A stretch of DNA of 64,000 bases from Anaerolineae bacterium (lineage in GTDB: Bacteria > Chloroflexota > Anaerolineae > VGOG01), in the NCBI GenBank assembly GCA_034431315.1, contig DAOUDK010000119.1:28873-92872 (forward strand), in the 5' to 3' direction. Shown piece by piece: positions 43,232-48,099 of the stretch. The translations under genes and the position numbers were made by a program. The notes beneath the pieces were generated by a model. That model was not told the DNA's origin and did not search any database. It worked only from the letters and a program-made list of their open reading frames with translations. Position 1 is the first letter of the stretch. Every line of letters starts with the position of its first letter.

Positions 43232-45325
43232 TTACGCCGCTAACACCAGCCGCATGTCAACGCCCACCACTCCCCGCCCGGCCTCGAACACGATGAGCGG
43301 GTTGATGTCCATCTCCATGATCTCGGGGAAATCGGTCACCAACTGCGAAAGCCGCAGCAGTGTGTCCACGATGGCTTCGATGTCCGAGGGCCGCTCACCG
43401 CGGACTCCCTTGAGCAGGCTGTAAGCGCGGATCTCCGTGATCATCTCCTGGGCCTCCTGCCGCGAGAAGGGCGCTATGCGAAAGGCCACGTCTTTGAGAG
43501 CCTCGACGTAGATCCCACCCAGGCCGAACATCATCAGCGGGCCGAACTGGGGGTCGCAGTTCATGCCCACGATGACCTCTTTGCCCCCCCGCACCATCTC
43601 CTGCACCAGACAGCCCCAGATCTCGGCGTCGGGCATGTAGCGGGTGGCCCGGTAGACTAACAGGTCGAAGGCATCCCGCACATCGGTGGCGCTGGCAATG
43701 CCCAGCTTGATGCCGCCGATGTCGGTCTTGTGGAGGATGTCCGGAGAAGTGATCTTCATCACCACCGGATAGCCGATCTCCTCGGCGATCTCCACCGCCT
43801 CATCGGCCGAGGTGGCCAGCTTGGACGCGGGGATGCGGATGCCGTAGGCTTCCATTATGTCCCGCGCCTCGGCGTCGCCGATGGTCTGCCGTCTGTCGGC
43901 CTTCACCCGCTCAAAGATGCCCCTCACCCTCTCCCGATCAACGTCAAACTCCTCGATCTCCAGGGGAGGGCGATCCAACCAGCGCCGGTATTCCAGCATG
44001 GCCCTCAGCGCCCCCACCGCCCGCTCAGGAAAGGAGTAGTTGGGTATCCTATGTTCGTTGAGCACCTTGATCCCCGCGCGGACCCTGGCCTCCCCCATGA
44101 AGCAGCCCAGGACAGGCTTATCGTAGCCAGCGGCGATCCGACCCACCGCCTCGGCTGTCTCCTCAATCCTGGTCATCACCTGGGGGGTGAGGATGACGAT
44201 GACGCCGTTCACGCCTTCGTCCTCAAGGGCAGCCTCCAGGGCCAGGGCGTAGCGGTCGGTCGGAGCATCTCCCAGGACGTCTATCGGATTGTAGATGTTG
44301 GCGGCGGCGGGGAGATTGTCCCGCAGGACATCAATCGTCTCCCGACTCAGCGAGGCCAGCGAGAGGCCCTCCCGCTCCAGGGCGTCGGTGGCCATCACGC
44401 CCGGCCCGCCGGCGTTGGTGACGATAGCGATGCGACCCCCTCGGAGCACTGGCTGGTAAGCGAAAGCTAGCGAATAGTCGAACAGGTGTTGGATGGACTC
44501 GGCCCTGAGCACCCCGCTCTGGCGGAAGGCCGACTCGTAAGCCCGCGCCGACCCCGCCAGAGAGCCAGTGTGAGAGGAGACGGCCCGTGAACCGGCGTCG
44601 GTAGAGCCGGACTTCACGGCGATGACCGGGATGCGGCGAGTGACCCTGCGGGCGACCTCCATAAACTCCTTGCCTTCGGAGAGGCCCTCGATGTAAGTGA
44701 GAATCACTTTGGAATGGGGATCGTCCTCCCAGGCCGCCAGCAAGTCAACCTCGTCCACGTCGGCCTTGTTGCCCAGGCTCACGAAGCGAGAGAAGCCGAT
44801 CCCAACGGCGAGGGCCCAGTCGAGGATGGCGGTGCAGAGAGCCCCCGACTGGGACATGAAGGCGATCTCTCCCTGGGGAGGCATCCCGGCGGCGAAGGAA
44901 GCGTCGAGCGGGCATAAGGTGTCTATGACCCCCAGGCAGTTGGGGCCGATGAGCCGCATCCCATGCCGTCTGGCGATGGCGACCAGCTCCCGCTCCATCC
45001 TCACCCCCTCCAGCCCGGCCTCGCGGAAGCCCGCGCTGATGATTATGACCCCTTCGACGCCTTTCTGGCCACATTCTTCCAGCGCCGTAGCAACGTACTT
45101 GTTGGGGATAACCATGACCGCCAAATCTATGGGCCCCGGGGCATCCAGGACGCTGGGGTAACACTTGAGCCCCAGGATCTCATCGGCCTTAGGGTTGATG
45201 GGGTAGACCTGGCCTGGGTAGCCATGTTCGATGATATTCGACAGCACCCCGTGACCCAGTTTCTCCTTGTCGCGAGAGGCGCCGATCACAGCCACCGCCT
45301 GGGGGCAGGAAAACATTTCAAGCAT
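43232..45325 (-). CDS. Acetate--CoA ligase (ADP-forming), fused alpha/beta
   Basis: 697 aa; CoA-binding N-term (AVIGAS), succinyl-CoA-synthetase-like flavodoxin domain, ATP-grasp C-term. Confidence 0.75.
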   Translation of the reverse strand: MLEMFSCPQAVAVIGASRDKEKLGHGVLSNIIEHGYPGQVYPINPKADEILGLKCYPSVLDAPGPIDLAVMVIPNKYVATALEECGQKGVEGVIIISAGFREAGLEGVRMERELVAIARRHGMRLIGPNCLGVIDTLCPLDASFAAGMPPQGEIAFMSQSGALCTAILDWALAVGIGFSRFVSLGNKADVDEVDLLAAWEDDPHSKVILTYIEGLSEGKEFMEVARRVTRRIPVIAVKSGSTDAGSRAVSSHTGSLAGSARAYESAFRQSGVLRAESIQHLFDYSLAFAYQPVLRGGRIAIVTNAGGPGVMATDALEREGLSLASLSRETIDVLRDNLPAAANIYNPIDVLGDAPTDRYALALEAALEDEGVNGVIVILTPQVMTRIEETAEAVGRIAAGYDKPVLGCFMGEARVRAGIKVLNEHRIPNYSFPERAVGALRAMLEYRRWLDRPPLEIEEFDVDRERVRGIFERVKADRRQTIGDAEARDIMEAYGIRIPASKLATSADEAVEIAEEIGYPVVMKITSPDILHKTDIGGIKLGIASATDVRDAFDLLVYRATRYMPDAEIWGCLVQEMVRGGKEVIVGMNCDPQFGPLMMFGLGGIYVEALKDVAFRIAPFSRQEAQEMITEIRAYSLLKGVRGERPSDIEAIVDTLLRLSQLVTDFPEIMEMDINPLIVFEAGRGVVGVDMRLVLAA

Positions 45326-45642
45326 ATTTATCTCCTACACGTTTGACAATGATATAACACAACCTCAAAAATGGCAAATCCGAACAGCAACCAAGGATTT
45401 CGATATGCCTGAAAACTACTCAATCGGCGCTCGCCAGTCTCCCGCCTGAGAACCGAATAGCCCTGCAATGCAACGGCTACGACTTGACCTCTGGTTGAAA
45501 ATAGGTTATACTTCCAGAAGACGTTGCACCAAACCGAGAGCAACTGACGGTTAGTGGCAAGAGGTGACTGAAACGATAGGCATTGAGTATACCAGCATTA
45601 AGGTGAGAAATCCTTTGAAAGACGGAGCAGAGGAGTTGTGCT

Positions 45643-46065
45643 ATGTCTCAGACTATCACGATCAGCTTATCTGACACTTTGTACAAGCAATTGAAACGGG
45701 CAGCCCAGTTGTCTCGCCAGCCGACCGAGACCATTATCATACAAAGCCTGACCCACACTCTGCCTGCCTTGTTGGAGGAGATTCCTGCTCGTTACCAATC
45801 GGACGTCTATCCGCTCTTACAAATGAGTGATGCTAACTTGCAACGAGAAGCAAACCGCACCTTCTCTTCGCAGCGTTGGGCCGAGTATGAAGCGTTGCTC
45901 GACAGGAAAAAGACGAAGCCATTGACACCTGAGGAAGAAACGCGTCTTGATACCCTCCGTCGTGAAGCTGATGTGCTCATGTTTCGCCGGGGCTACGCGG
46001 CGGTTCTTCTCAAAAGGCGTGGCCATCGTCTGCCGACACTACATGAACTGGCGCAGTCGAGATGA
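45643..46065 (+). CDS. Hypothetical protein with RHH-like N-terminus (ITISLSDTLYKQLKRAA), possible antitoxin/partner of HNH nuclease
   Basis: 140 aa; stop overlaps start of HNH gene (ATGA). Confidence 0.35.
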   Translation: MSQTITISLSDTLYKQLKRAAQLSRQPTETIIIQSLTHTLPALLEEIPARYQSDVYPLLQMSDANLQREANRTFSSQRWAEYEALLDRKKTKPLTPEEETRLDTLRREADVLMFRRGYAAVLLKRRGHRLPTLHELAQSR

Positions 46066-46481
46066 CCCCCTCTGCCCAAGCATTGCGCCAACGCATCGCA
46101 GAACAGGCACACCACCGGTGCGGTTATTGCCAGACACAGGAGGTCATTAGCGGAATACCGCTGACCCTGGAGCACATCGTCCCCAAAGCAAAAGGTGGGC
46201 AGGACGCAGAAGAGAACCTATGGCTTTCTTGCCGCTTATGCAACGAGGCCAAAAGTGTTTCGACTGAAGCCATTGATCCAGAGACCGGTGTCACAGCGCC
46301 GCTTTTCAACCCTAGAACACAAACTTGGCTAGAGCATTTTACCTGGAGCGAGGACGGTACACGTATCACAGGTCAGACGCCAACAGGCCGGGCCACGGTC
46401 GCCGCATTGTCTCTCAACAGCGAGTTGCGGGTGCGTGCTCGAGCCATCTGGGTTGAAGCTGGCTGGCACCCGCCGGAGTAG
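46062..46481 (+). CDS. HNH endonuclease
   Basis: 139 aa; HHRCGYC...LEHIVPKAKGG..NLWLSCRLCN HNH/zinc-finger motif. Confidence 0.7.
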   Translation: MTPSAQALRQRIAEQAHHRCGYCQTQEVISGIPLTLEHIVPKAKGGQDAEENLWLSCRLCNEAKSVSTEAIDPETGVTAPLFNPRTQTWLEHFTWSEDGTRITGQTPTGRATVAALSLNSELRVRARAIWVEAGWHPPE

Positions 46482-46861
46482 GCTGCCAGATGCAGGAAAA
46501 TGGCGGCCCACCCCATGTCTACATCGTAATCCATTGCGTAGTGGCGACCTCCTGTTCCACCGTCTTTAATTTGACGTTGCCCCGCTTCTGGGCTGATTCG
46601 CCAAATCAACCGCATTCACAGTAGCCTCGACCTTTGCGAAGTAACACTCACCCCATTCGAGTTGACCCTGTAGCGATGCCCAGACCGTCTGATTTGATCA
46701 TTGGTGAGTTGTGCACCGCCCTGGCGCAGTTATCGTATCTGCCCAGGGCCTTTGTTTTGGTGTGGGCTGCTGCGCGGCGTGGGCCAGGCTGCTGTAGGTG
46801 TAGGGCCTTCAGCCTGAGCTCAGGCCGGCCGGCTTTGTCGTGAAATCCCGCCCAACCATCC

Positions 46862-46890
46862 TTGACAGAAACCAGTGGACGTGCTAGAAT
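46862..46890 (+). promoter_or_regulatory. Consensus sigma70 promoter TTGACA-17-TAGAAT for cysteine desulfurase gene
   Basis: cTTGACAgaaaccagtggacgtgcTAGAATaaccc. Confidence 0.6.
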
Positions 46891-46917
46891 AACCCAGACG
46901 ATTGGCGGAGGAAGAAA

Positions 46918-48099
46918 ATGCAAAAACCATCGAGAACGATTTACCTGGACCACGCCGCCACCACCGCCGTTGATCCGCGAGTGGTGGAGGCCATGCTCCC
47001 CTATTTCAACCCCCAGTACGGCAACGCCTCCAGCATCTACAGGCTGGGGCAAGAAGCTGGCAAAGCTATTGACGACGCCCGGCGCATGGTGGCCGATATC
47101 CTGGGCTGCCAGCCCAGGGAGGTGATTTTCACCAGTTGTGGGACCGAGAGCGATAACCTGGCTCTGCGCGGCGTGGGTTGGGCGCGGCGCAACCTGGGAA
47201 AAGGAAACCACATCATCACCTCCCCCATCGAGCACCACGCCGTGAGCCACACCTGCGAGCAATTGGAGAAACACTTCGGCTTCGAGATCACCTACCTGCC
47301 GGTTGATAAGTATGGGATGGTTGATCCCGATGACGTCCGCCGAGCTATCAAGGACGACACCATCCTCATCAGCATCATATACGCCAACAACGAGGTGGGC
47401 ACCATTGAGCCCCTCGCCGAAATCGGCAGAATCGCCAAAGAAAAGGGCGTGCCTTTCCACACCGATGCCGTGCAGGCTGGCGGCTCTCTGAGCCTGGACG
47501 TGAACGAGCTGAACGTTGACCTCCTTTCCCTCTCGGCGCACAAGTTCTACGGCCCCAAGGGAGTCGGCGTGCTCTATGCGCGCCAGGGCGTGTCCCTGCT
47601 GCCCACCCAAACTGGCGGCGGCCACGAGCGCAATCGCAGGGCCGGCACCGAGAACGTGCCCTACATCGTCGGGTTAGCCACAGCACTAAGGATAGCCTAC
47701 GATGAACTGGAGGCCAACAACCAGCGCATATCCGCCCTGCGGGATCGCCTGATCGCAGGCGTTCTGGAGAGCATAGATGAGGTGGAACTTACCGGCCACC
47801 CCACCAGCCGCCTGCCCACCAGCGCCAGCTTCGCCTTCAAGTACATCGAGGGGGAGTCCGTGCTGCTCAATCTAGACCTGGCAGGGATCTCCGCCTCCAG
47901 CGGCTCGGCCTGTACCTCGGCCTCCCTGGAGGCCTCCCACGTGCTGCTGGCCATGGGCATCCCCCCCGAACTAGCCCAGGGCAGCTTGCGCCTGACCCCG
48001 GGCAGGGAGAACACCACAGAGGACATTGACTACGTGCTGGGCATACTGCCCAGCATCGTTCAAAAGCTGCGGGACATGAGCCCACTCTACTCAAACTAG
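46918..48099 (+). CDS. Cysteine desulfurase (NifS/IscS family, class V aminotransferase)
   Basis: 393 aa; PLP lysine motif [10 protein letters not shown]; C-terminal active-site Cys SSGSACTS. Confidence 0.8.

What the first reader, a model, noticed from the sequence alone, without database searches (positions are those of the whole stretch)
45643..46481. Overlapping RHH-like protein + small HNH endonuclease cassette in a low-complexity intergenic island
A 140-aa protein with an RHH-like N-terminus is start/stop-coupled (ATGA) to a 139-aa HNH nuclease (HHRCGYC...NLWLSCRLCN). The pair is flanked by ~310 bp and ~435 bp non-coding stretches of lower GC, between the ACS operon and the iscS-tig-clpPX block. 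The architecture resembles toxin-antitoxin or abortive-infection modules. I do not recognise the first gene's family.
Basis: partly seen in the sequence, partly recalled or inferred. Interest (0 to 1): 0.5.

Follow-up and report, generated by a model that had tools for sequence, protein, structure and literature searches.

The report
Mobile RHH-partner plus HNH nuclease gene pair
Two small overlapping genes, one for a DNA-binding protein of an uncatalogued family and one for an HNH nuclease, form a horizontally mobile pair found in many bacterial phyla; it most likely works as a toxin-antitoxin (addiction or defence) module, but this has not been tested experimentally.

Summary
ORF-A (45643-46065, 140 aa) and ORF-B (46062-46481, 139 aa) overlap by ATGA. 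B is a catalytically intact HNH nuclease.

A has no Pfam, NCBIfam, PADLOC or PDB sequence match. It belongs to a large family of ~140-aa proteins (931 clusters at 50% identity). At family level the N-terminus is ribbon-helix-helix. The C-terminal half is a confidently predicted helical hairpin.

The pairing is strongly conserved:
- 39 of 57 non-redundant A-seeded loci carry an intact HNH directly downstream.
- 49 of 60 full-length pairs keep the 4-nt NTGA overlap.
- All 16 HNH-seeded loci, including 13 cyanobacterial plasmids, have an A-related partner upstream.

The HNH is often deleted or pseudogenised while A survives (18 of 57). The reverse was not seen. Both genes are under purifying selection (dN/dS ~0.12-0.14) and diverge together (r=0.81).

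DNA homology to other copies covers only the two genes, and no flanks are shared. No copy was found in phage collections. A-like modules are also found fused to known antitoxin domains (MNT, AF2212-like).

Best reading: a previously undescribed type II toxin-antitoxin-like module with a PtuB-like HNH toxin. Toxicity and neutralisation are inferred, not shown.

The parts
45484..45512 (+). Candidate sigma-70-type promoter, TTGACC-17 nt-TATACT, 130 nt upstream of the A start codon
   Evidence: Consensus scan, 10 of 12 matches. The closest relatives carry the same TTGAC-N17-TATACT type 35-48 nt upstream of their ATG, with a short inverted repeat between the hexamers. Function is inferred only.
45630..45635 (+). 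Ribosome-binding site GAGGAG, 7 nt before the ATG. DNA homology to other copies of the cassette begins at ~45629.
   Evidence: Sequence. blastn boundaries are shared by L019, L002, L001, L020 and L021.
45643..46065 (+). Gene A: 140-aa partner protein, the putative antitoxin/repressor. It belongs to an uncatalogued family.
   Evidence: ORF. No Pfam, NCBIfam, PADLOC or PDB sequence match. 215 or more close homologues and 931 clusters at 50% identity with E<=1e-3. dN/dS ~0.12.
45649..45756 (+). N-terminal ribbon-helix-helix-like region of A (residues ~3-38: strand QTITISL, then helices 11-24 and 28-37)
   Evidence: Family-level Pfam RHH_5, RHH_1 and FitA-like RHH hits. Weak PDB profile hits to CopG, EndoAI, VapB26 and HP0222 at positions 2-42. 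The AF2 helices match RHH topology, but pLDDT is low, as expected for a monomer model of an obligate dimer.
45868..46017 (+). Helical hairpin of A (residues ~76-125; LLxKKxxxxLTxxExxxL...FRxGYAAVLLKRRG). This is the only part shared by all HNH partner proteins and is the putative HNH-binding element.
46062..46065 (+). ATGA overlap of the A stop codon and the B start codon (translational coupling)
   Evidence: Sequence. The NTGA overlap is conserved in 49 of 60 full-length pairs, with ATG, GTG or TTG starts.
46062..46481 (+). Gene B: 139-aa HNH nuclease, the putative toxin/effector
   Evidence: Pfam HNH 6.7e-11. PADLOC PtuB profiles reach 1.7e-12 over residues 6-127. dN/dS ~0.14.
46119..46256 (+). 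HNH core of B (residues 20-65): zinc-binding CxxC...CxxC (C20, C23, C57, C60) and catalytic E37-H38, N52, N61
   Evidence: C23, E37, H38, N52, C57, C60 and N61 are invariant in 43 homologues, and C20 is conserved in 90% or more. The core aligns to IscB and Cas9 HNH domains and to PDB 4h9d.
46257..46478 (+). C-terminal extension of B (NPRxxxWxxHFxW...GRAT...W...GxHPP), of the type seen in PtuB
   Evidence: AF2 pLDDT is 74-96 over residues 61-130 (one search is A; this is). The best Foldseek PDB hits are PtuB chains of retron Ec78/Eco7 complexes, and they are weak (E 0.2-0.5, probability up to 0.89).
45326..45642 (.). Upstream flank, 317 bp, GC 0.46. It is not shared with any other copy of the cassette.
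   Evidence: No Rfam match.
46482..46917 (.). Downstream flank, 436 bp, GC 0.56. It is shared only with the 96%-identical copy L019, up to 46745 where that contig ends. The promoter of the downstream aminotransferase gene is at 46862-46890.

Best explanation
The pair is a horizontally mobile, self-contained type II toxin-antitoxin-like module.

Gene B encodes a small, catalytically intact HNH nuclease of the PtuB-like branch. It would damage the cell's own nucleic acid, either DNA or, as shown for PtuB, a tRNA.

Gene A encodes its partner. A's N-terminal ribbon-helix-helix would dimerise and bind an operator at the pair's own promoter, giving autoregulation. A's C-terminal helical hairpin would bind and silence the nuclease. 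The ATGA overlap couples translation, so B is not made without A.

The nuclease would be released if A is lost or titrated. That could happen through loss of the element, proteolysis, or shut-off of host expression by a phage. The result would be post-segregational killing or abortive infection.

Shown here:
- the two genes are real and under purifying selection;
- the pairing is conserved, and so is the overlap;
- the catalytic residues of B are intact;
- A is RHH-like at family level;
- the unit is mobile;
- the two genes decay asymmetrically.

Inferred, not shown: toxicity of B, neutralisation and direct binding by A, autoregulation, the substrate, and the trigger.
For: 1. Conserved bicistronic pairing.
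- 39 of 57 non-redundant A-seeded loci with enough downstream sequence have an intact HNH directly after A.
- All 16 HNH-seeded loci have an A-related small gene directly upstream. These are Thiothrix, two metagenome lineages and 13 cyanobacterial plasmids.
- A distant A member (37% identity) also has the HNH downstream.

2. Translational coupling. The NTGA overlap is kept in 49 of 60 full-length pairs.

3. Asymmetric decay. The HNH is absent in 9 loci and degraded in 9 (stops, frameshifts, internal deletions) while the A ORF survives. No intact HNH was found without a partner (Fisher p=0.008).

4. Real, co-evolving genes. dN/dS is 0.12 for A and 0.14 for B, and dN(A) correlates with dN(B) at r=0.81.

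5. Antitoxin-like architecture of A. It combines an RHH with a helical hairpin. The hairpin is the only part kept in the short cyanobacterial partners.

6. Fusions to bona fide antitoxin domains. P0383 is an A-like module fused to an MNT nucleotidyltransferase, followed by a HEPN gene that overlaps it by 4 nt. P0281 is an A-like module fused to an AF2212-like domain.

7. Mobility.
- DNA homology covers only 45629 to ~46490.
- None of the 90 loci tested shares the window's flanking genes.
- The unit has lower GC than its neighbours.
- It occurs in Chloroflexota, Bipolaricaulia, Desulfobacterales, Thiothrix, Entotheonellia and cyanobacterial plasmids.
- Its neighbours are often TA or defence genes: DUF433, DUF433 plus a PIN-like protein, MNT/HEPN, Uma2, TIR, SIR2_2.

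8. The closest characterised HNH relatives are PtuB effectors of Septu and retron Eco7, which arrest growth.
Against: - No toxicity, binding or autoregulation data exist.
- PtuB alone is not toxic and needs its upstream partner PtuA. The upstream partner of a PtuB-like HNH can therefore be an activator rather than an inhibitor.
- The HNH-seeded sample is small (16 loci) and mostly cyanobacterial. The asymmetry weakens to p=0.054 if the frameshifted L009 copy is counted as an HNH without a partner.
- The window's own A gives no RHH hit; the assignment rests on relatives.
- In the MNT fusion the whole A-like module is present, so the hairpin may serve dimerisation rather than toxin binding.
- The AF2 model of the HNH core has low confidence.
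- The supposed operator repeats are only 3-5 bp per arm.
Confidence: 0.6

Rival explanations
1. Two-subunit nuclease, a minimal Septu-like effector. A is a required positive partner that brings DNA binding or oligomerisation to the HNH, much as PtuA is needed for PtuB activity. The pair would act as a restriction-like or defence nuclease, or as some other regulated nuclease. It would not be a toxin held in check by A.
For: B is most similar to PtuB among characterised systems. The gene order, partner then HNH, is the same as ptuA-ptuB. PtuA or PtuB alone is non-toxic, while the pair is toxic. Strict co-occurrence, co-evolution and translational coupling fit an obligate heteromer equally well.
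Against: A is 140 aa and has no ATPase. It matches no PtuA profile, and B is far below the NCBIfam PtuB cut-off (12.7 bits against 150). An obligate heteromer predicts symmetric loss, but only the HNH is seen lost or degraded (18 of 57 against 0 of 16). A-like modules are fused to antitoxin domains. RHH plus a toxin-binding tail is the classical antitoxin layout.
Confidence: 0.22
2. Free-standing homing-endonuclease cassette. The HNH cuts empty target sites, A supplies site recognition, and the two-gene unit copies itself into intergenic regions by repair of the break.
For: The boundaries are sharp: DNA homology covers exactly the two genes. Insertion contexts differ at every locus. The HNH is frequently degraded, as in the homing cycle. 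There are tandem and decayed copies in one Ardenticatenaceae genome.
Against: No relatives were found in phage records or IMG/VR. No intron or intein context is present. No conserved target or flank sequence is shared between loci. A is retained when the HNH is lost, and retention is not expected for a mere targeting subunit. Both genes are under purifying selection across phyla. Many copies sit among TA or defence genes and on plasmids, not at one recurrent site.
Confidence: 0.08
3. Host housekeeping function. A is a transcription factor and B is a repair or processing nuclease serving the neighbouring metabolic genes (acyl-CoA synthetase, cysteine desulfurase).
For: In this window the pair sits between housekeeping genes.
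Against: None of the 90 related loci tested keeps these neighbours. The distribution is patchy and crosses phyla, and copies are plasmid-borne in cyanobacteria. The HNH is often pseudogenised. GC differs from the neighbours.
Confidence: 0.03

Closest known systems
Type II toxin-antitoxin modules with RHH antitoxins (e.g. ParD/ParE, RelB/RelE, FitA/FitB, CcdA/CcdB)
   Same: Two small genes with overlapping stop and start, the partner gene first. The partner has an N-terminal ribbon-helix-helix and a C-terminal helical segment. The pair has its own promoter, is horizontally mobile, sits next to other TA genes, and leaves orphan 'antitoxins' after toxin loss.
   Different: The putative toxin is an HNH (beta-beta-alpha-metal) nuclease, not a RelE/ParE, PIN, CcdB or MazF fold. 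The partner family has no model in Pfam, NCBIfam or PADLOC. My full-text searches found no description of it. Toxicity and neutralisation are untested.
PtuB, the HNH effector of Septu and of retron Ec78/Eco7 (type I-A retrons)
   Same: It gives the best profile matches (PADLOC PtuB, E 1.7e-12 over residues 6-127) and the best, though weak, structural matches to B, including the C-terminal extension. It is encoded downstream of its partner. It is a growth-arresting effector kept in check by other components.
   Different: PtuB is ~205-225 aa and works with the PtuA ATPase, and in retrons also with RT-msDNA. Here B is 139 aa, and its partner is a 140-aa RHH/hairpin protein with no ATPase. B scores 12.7 bits against the NCBIfam PtuB cut-off of 150. 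PtuB alone is not toxic.
Colicin E7/E9 DNase with Im7/Im9, and polymorphic-toxin HNH domains with their immunity proteins
   Same: An HNH nuclease is paired with a small all-helical protein that would block it by direct binding.
   Different: In those systems the HNH is the C-terminal domain of a large secreted toxin and the immunity gene lies downstream. Here both proteins are small, cytoplasmic and stand-alone, the partner is upstream, and it carries a DNA-binding RHH. No sequence similarity to Im proteins was detected.
HNH domains of IscB and Cas9 (OMEGA / type II CRISPR)
   Same: These are the best sequence matches to the HNH core (NCBIfam IscB E 9.8e-12; PDB TbaIscB, YnpsCas9, Cas9).
   Different: The similarity covers only the ~50-residue HNH core. 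There is no RuvC domain, no guide RNA (no Rfam match) and no IS200/605 context. The score is 44.6 bits against a cut-off of 175.
Gmet_0936-type small stand-alone HNH endonucleases (PDB 4h9d)
   Same: A small stand-alone HNH with a zinc-binding CxxC...CxxC core (E 8e-5 with the family profile).
   Different: That protein has 112 residues, and the match (family-profile positions 15-67) covers only the HNH core, not the C-terminal extension. Whether it has an A-type partner was not examined.

Membership tests
HNH endonuclease superfamily (Pfam PF01844) | Profile match above the curated cut-off | tested here: met
   42.6 bits against a cut-off of 21.4, E 6.7e-11, residues 20-65.
HNH endonuclease superfamily (Pfam PF01844) | Catalytic His (general base), structural Asn, metal-binding Asn/His, and the zinc-binding Cys pairs | tested here: met
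   C23, E37, H38, N52, C57, C60 and N61 are invariant in 43 homologues, and C20 is conserved in 90% or more.
Ribbon-helix-helix (CopG/Arc/MetJ) DNA-binding domain, N-terminus of A | Profile similarity to RHH families with strand-helix-helix topology | tested here: inconclusive
   The window protein has no Pfam hit at E<=1. Of 108 family members, 17 hit RHH_5 (best 1.4e-6), 11 hit RHH_1 and 8 hit FitA-like RHH. PDB profile hits to CopG, EndoAI, VapB26 and HP0222 at positions 2-42 reach only E 0.4-0.7. AF2 helices 11-24 and 28-37 fit the topology, but confidence is low.
Type II toxin-antitoxin system | Two small adjacent co-oriented genes in one operon, conserved as a pair | tested here: met
   The 4-nt overlap is kept in 49 of 60 pairs. 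The pair is conserved across phyla.
Type II toxin-antitoxin system | One product is toxic to the producing cell | not testable with these tools
   Support is indirect only: an intact nuclease active site, frequent pseudogenisation of B, and relatedness to the growth-arresting PtuB.
Type II toxin-antitoxin system | The partner protein neutralises the toxin by direct binding | not testable with these tools
Correlated divergence (r=0.81) and the shared hairpin in all partners are only suggestive.
Type II toxin-antitoxin system | The antitoxin (or the complex) represses its own promoter | not testable with these tools
   Promoter-like sites with short inverted repeats between the hexamers occur in the closest relatives, and a candidate promoter lies at 45484-45512. 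No binding data exist.
Type II toxin-antitoxin system | The toxin is never kept without its antitoxin, whereas orphan antitoxins occur | tested here: met
   18 of 57 A-seeded loci lack an intact HNH, and 0 of 16 HNH-seeded loci lack a partner. The HNH-seeded sample is small.
Septu (PtuA-PtuB) | PtuA ABC-type/AAA ATPase encoded next to the HNH | tested here: not met
   A has 140 aa, no ATPase domain and no PADLOC PtuA hit. No ATPase gene is adjacent in the window.
Septu (PtuA-PtuB) | HNH protein matches PtuB above the curated threshold | tested here: not met
   NCBIfam PtuB scores 12.7 bits against a cut-off of 150. PADLOC PtuB profiles do match at 1.7e-12, so B is related to PtuB but is not a member.
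IscB / OMEGA RNA-guided nuclease | RuvC plus HNH architecture, an associated omega RNA, and a score above the cut-off | tested here: not met
   44.6 bits against a cut-off of 175, covering the HNH core only. The protein has 139 aa. There is no Rfam match in 45000-47200.
Integron gene cassette | attC-type imperfect inverted repeat after the last gene | tested here: not met
   No inverted repeat of 14 nt or more lies downstream of B. Homology between copies ends at the stop codon of B.
Phage-borne HNH (homing or terminase-associated) | Location in phage genomes, next to terminase or within introns/inteins | tested here: not met
   A has no match in 50,697 phage records. The B family has no confirmed relative in IMG/VR.

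The most novel reading that the evidence does not exclude
This is the founding example of a widespread, uncatalogued type II toxin-antitoxin family. Its toxin is a minimal PtuB-like HNH nuclease, possibly targeting tRNA like PtuB rather than DNA. Its antitoxin is a new RHH-plus-helical-hairpin protein that takes over the restraining role played by the PtuA ATPase and the retron RT in Septu and retron systems. On this view the hairpin is a portable HNH-silencing module. It is shared by hundreds of partner proteins in Chloroflexota, Cyanobacteria and Proteobacteria, and A-like modules also occur fused to other antitoxin domains such as MNT and AF2212-like.
Probability: 0.45. Interest if true: 0.6.

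Novelty: new variant of a known kind. Interest (0 to 1): 0.45.

Why it matters
HNH nucleases are well known as effectors of restriction, CRISPR, Septu/retron and secreted-toxin systems. I found no described classical two-gene toxin-antitoxin family built on one.

The partner family is large: 931 clusters at 50% identity. It is present on plasmids of model cyanobacteria such as Nostoc PCC 7120 and Synechocystis PCC 6714. Yet it is annotated only as 'hypothetical protein' and has no Pfam or NCBIfam model.

If the module is confirmed, four things would follow:
- a new toxin fold would be added to the type II TA repertoire;
- a small protein inhibitor of PtuB-like HNH nucleases would be available, useful for studying Septu and retron effectors;
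- thousands of genes would gain an annotation;
- an evolutionary link would appear between simple TA pairs and the more elaborate HNH-based defence systems.

For this window specifically, it marks a small horizontally acquired insertion between housekeeping genes.

Tried and rejected
- Structure of the complex. I built an alignment of A-(GGGGS)6-B fusions from 29 natural pairs.
- Fold of B. The AF2 model has a low-confidence HNH core (pLDDT<50 for residues 18-55). Foldseek hits are therefore weak and rest on the C-terminal domain.
- Non-coding features. There is no Rfam match, no tandem repeats, no significant inverted or direct repeats and no terminator after B. ORFs in the flanks have no Pfam match. 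Integron-cassette and guide-RNA ideas were dropped.
- Phage origin. No match to A was found in the phage collection, and no confirmed relative of the B family in IMG/VR.
- Synteny. None of the 90 related loci tested contains homologues of the window's flanking genes, so an empty-site comparison could not be made.
- Search logistics. The single-protein scan of genome contigs found only 7 loci. The broad alignment A2 was too diverse for the locus scan, and the first metagenome scan failed. The 'TASmania' literature search returned only zoology papers. The first dN/dS script timed out and was rewritten.
- Terminase-small-subunit idea for A. This was rejected for lack of any phage context.
Full report
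**1. The observation**

A is at 45643-46065 (140 aa) and B is at 46062-46481 (139 aa). They share ATGA, so A's stop codon overlaps B's start codon. A GAGGAG ribosome-binding site lies 7 nt before A's ATG.

The flanks are 317 bp and 436 bp.
- They contain no Pfam-matching ORF, no Rfam family, no tandem repeat and only trivial short repeats. 'Low complexity' is therefore not an apt description.
- GC is 0.46 upstream, 0.52 in A, 0.58 in B and 0.56 downstream. The window mean is 0.59, and the two adjacent genes are 0.64 and 0.62. The lower-GC island is real, but it is clear mainly on the left side.

- an ADP-forming acyl-CoA-synthetase-type protein (CoA_binding_2, Succ_CoA_lig, ATP-grasp_5) and a DRTGG protein on the minus strand;
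- a class-V aminotransferase of the cysteine-desulfurase type, trigger factor and ClpP downstream.

**2. What the two proteins are**

*Protein B.* B is an HNH nuclease (PF01844, 42.6 bits against a cut-off of 21.4). In 43 homologues, C23, E37, H38, N52, C57, C60 and N61 are invariant, and C20 is conserved in 90% or more. The enzyme therefore looks active.
- By sequence, the core resembles the HNH domains of IscB and Cas9 and the small HNH of PDB 4h9d.
- Over its whole length, including the C-terminal extension, it matches PADLOC PtuB profiles (E 1.7e-12 over residues 6-127).
- The best Foldseek hits of its AF2 model are PtuB chains of retron Ec78/Eco7 complexes, though these are weak.
- It is not a PtuB by NCBI's curated model (12.7 bits against 150).

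*Protein A.* A has no hit in Pfam, NCBIfam, PADLOC or PDB sequences. It is nevertheless a member of a large family:
- 215 or more close relatives, all about 140 aa and all unnamed or 'hypothetical';
- 931 clusters at 50% identity with E<=1e-3 in an exhaustive profile search.

At family level the N-terminus is ribbon-helix-helix. Of 108 diverse members, 17 hit RHH_5 (best 1.4e-6), 11 hit RHH_1 and 8 hit FitA-like RHH. The family profile places CopG, EndoAI, VapB26 and HP0222 on positions 2-42, but only weakly (E 0.4-0.7).

**3. Is the pairing conserved?**

Yes, and strongly.

*Loci found by searching with A*. After removing redundancy and loci too short to judge:
- 39 of 57 have an intact HNH directly downstream;
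- 9 have a degraded HNH, with in-frame stops, frameshifts or internal deletions that leave only the 3' end;
- 9 have no HNH.

*Loci found by searching with the HNH.*
- Thiothrix fructosivorans and two metagenomic lineages all carry an A homologue upstream with the same 4-nt overlap.
- All 13 cyanobacterial plasmid HNH genes I inspected have a small upstream gene that matches the A profile. E-values run from 4e-53 down to 5e-6 in a 13-sequence search.
- In the shortest partners (79-92 aa) only the hairpin motif LLxKxxxxxLTxxExxEL is retained.
- In Rippkaea PCC 8801 an IS4 element has inserted between the two genes.

A distant A member (37% identity) is also followed by an HNH that the gene caller had missed.

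The NTGA overlap is kept in 49 of 60 full-length pairs, while the start codon varies among ATG, GTG and TTG.

Both genes are under purifying selection: median dN/dS is 0.12 for A and 0.14 for B. Their non-synonymous divergences are correlated (r=0.81). They are real genes that evolve as a unit.

**4. Mobility**

- blastn of the whole intergenic-to-intergenic region against 90 related loci finds homology only from about 45629 (the RBS) to about 46482-46490 (B's stop codon).
- No locus shares the window's flanking genes.
- Even the 96%-identical copy L019 diverges abruptly to the left of 45629, although it shares the right flank up to its contig end at 46745.
- Hosts named by the sources include Anaerolineae, Ardenticatenaceae, Bipolaricaulia, Desulfobacterales, Entotheonellia, Thiothrix and many cyanobacterial plasmids.
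- Neighbours are often TA or defence genes:
  - Uma2 and a TIR protein, inside an island that splits scpA from scpB in Thiothrix;
  - DUF433;
  - DUF433 plus a PIN-like protein;
  - MNT/HEPN and RelE-like genes;
  - SIR2_2.
- No copy was found in phage genomes or IMG/VR.
- Most copies have their own promoter-like element 35-60 nt upstream.
  - In the window's closest relatives this is TTGAC-N17-TATACT, with a short inverted repeat between the hexamers whose arms differ between loci (CCTA/TAGG, CCTC/GAGG, CCTG/CAGG).
  - The window has TTGACC-17-TATACT at 45484-45512.

**5. Mechanism**

The best-supported model is a type II toxin-antitoxin-like module, with A as the antitoxin/repressor and B as the nuclease toxin.

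Arguments for:
- The layout is classical. The antitoxin gene comes first, translation is coupled, and the partner has an RHH followed by a C-terminal helical element.
- Decay is asymmetric. The HNH is lost or broken in 18 of 57 loci while A persists, and 0 of 16 HNH-seeded loci lack a partner (Fisher p=0.008).
- A-like modules occur as N-terminal fusions on recognised antitoxin domains. P0383 is A-like plus an MNT nucleotidyltransferase, followed by a HEPN gene overlapping it by 4 nt. P0281 is A-like plus an AF2212-like domain.
- The HNH is related to PtuB, a growth-arresting effector that degrades tRNA-Tyr in Septu and retron Eco7.

What is not shown:
- that B is toxic;
- that A binds or inhibits it;
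- that A autoregulates;
- what B cuts.

The main caveat is that PtuB alone is not toxic and needs its upstream partner PtuA. A could therefore be an activating or targeting subunit rather than an inhibitor. I rank this rival second, because loss is asymmetric and A has an antitoxin-like domain context. A homing-endonuclease cassette and a housekeeping role are less likely; the reasons are given under the rival explanations.

**6. Comparison with what is known**

- It works like an RHH-antitoxin type II TA module, but with an HNH toxin and an uncatalogued antitoxin family.
- It is related to PtuB of Septu but is not a member: there is no PtuA ATPase and the score is below the curated cut-off.
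- It resembles colicin DNase/Im pairs only in concept.
- It shares only the HNH core with IscB and Cas9.

Full-text searches for HNH toxins in type II TA systems returned nothing describing this pair. In the NetFlax TA network paper, HNH is mentioned only once, as the PtuB-like node linked to an ATPase. RefSeq and GenBank label all the cyanobacterial partner proteins I inspected as 'hypothetical protein'.

**7. Verdict**

The finding is a new variant of a known kind. It is moderately interesting: a sizeable, unannotated partner family for a PtuB-like HNH nuclease, and it is readily testable. Confidence in the TA mechanism is about 0.6.

Noticed in passing
L096 2092-2348, 5001-5842, 6110-6752 (Ardenticatenaceae genome JAOSJS010000001.1): Three cassettes of this type are clustered within about 5 kb. 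One is an intact A+HNH pair. One is a diverged pair with a hairpin-only partner and a truncated HNH. The third is a frameshifted HNH remnant. DUF2283 genes lie among them.
   Followed up: partly
L090 and L056, aligned to window 45821-46051 + 46407-46482 and 45640-46067 + 46413-46465; also L001, L020, L021, L088 and L089, whose homology ends at window 46035-46051: Orphan A genes show recurrent deletion breakpoints near the 3' end of A. In two loci a short remnant of the HNH 3' end survives. This indicates internal deletion of the nuclease gene rather than an ancestrally single gene.
   Followed up: partly
window 45629 compared with L019 position 247: The 96%-identical copy L019 shares the right flank with the window up to its contig end, but nothing to the left of 45629. 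L019, L020 and L021 share a different left flank and a promoter 48 nt upstream. In the window lineage the original promoter region therefore seems to have been replaced by a rearrangement.
   Followed up: partly
L094 (Rippkaea orientalis PCC 8801 plasmid pP880101) 473-2926: An IS4-family transposase gene is inserted between the partner gene and the HNH gene, separating the pair.
   Followed up: no
L008 2881-7891 (Thiothrix fructosivorans): The conserved scpA-scpB pair is split by an island of about 5 kb. The island carries a Uma2 endonuclease, the A+HNH pair, a TIR/Sel1 protein and a 715-aa protein with no domain hits.
   Followed up: no
L027-L034 (e.g. L027 4237-5072): In one metagenomic lineage A has lost its usual stop codon. 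It runs to 162 aa and overlaps the HNH gene by 70 nt instead of 4.
   Followed up: no
L018 642-1064; L099 5402-5833: Intact HNH genes directly after A are missing from the stored gene calls of these contigs. Surveys based on gene calls would therefore underestimate how often the two genes co-occur.
   Followed up: yes
L109 3001-4151 (protein P0383); protein P0281: A-like modules (RHH plus hairpin) are fused to an MNT nucleotidyltransferase, followed by an overlapping HEPN gene, and in another protein to an AF2212-like domain. The module appears to be reused in other toxin-antitoxin families.
   Followed up: partly
window 46648-47625 (- strand): A 325-aa ORF lies antisense to the aminotransferase gene and extends into the downstream flank of the pair. 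It is most likely a spurious antisense ORF of a GC-rich gene.
   Followed up: no
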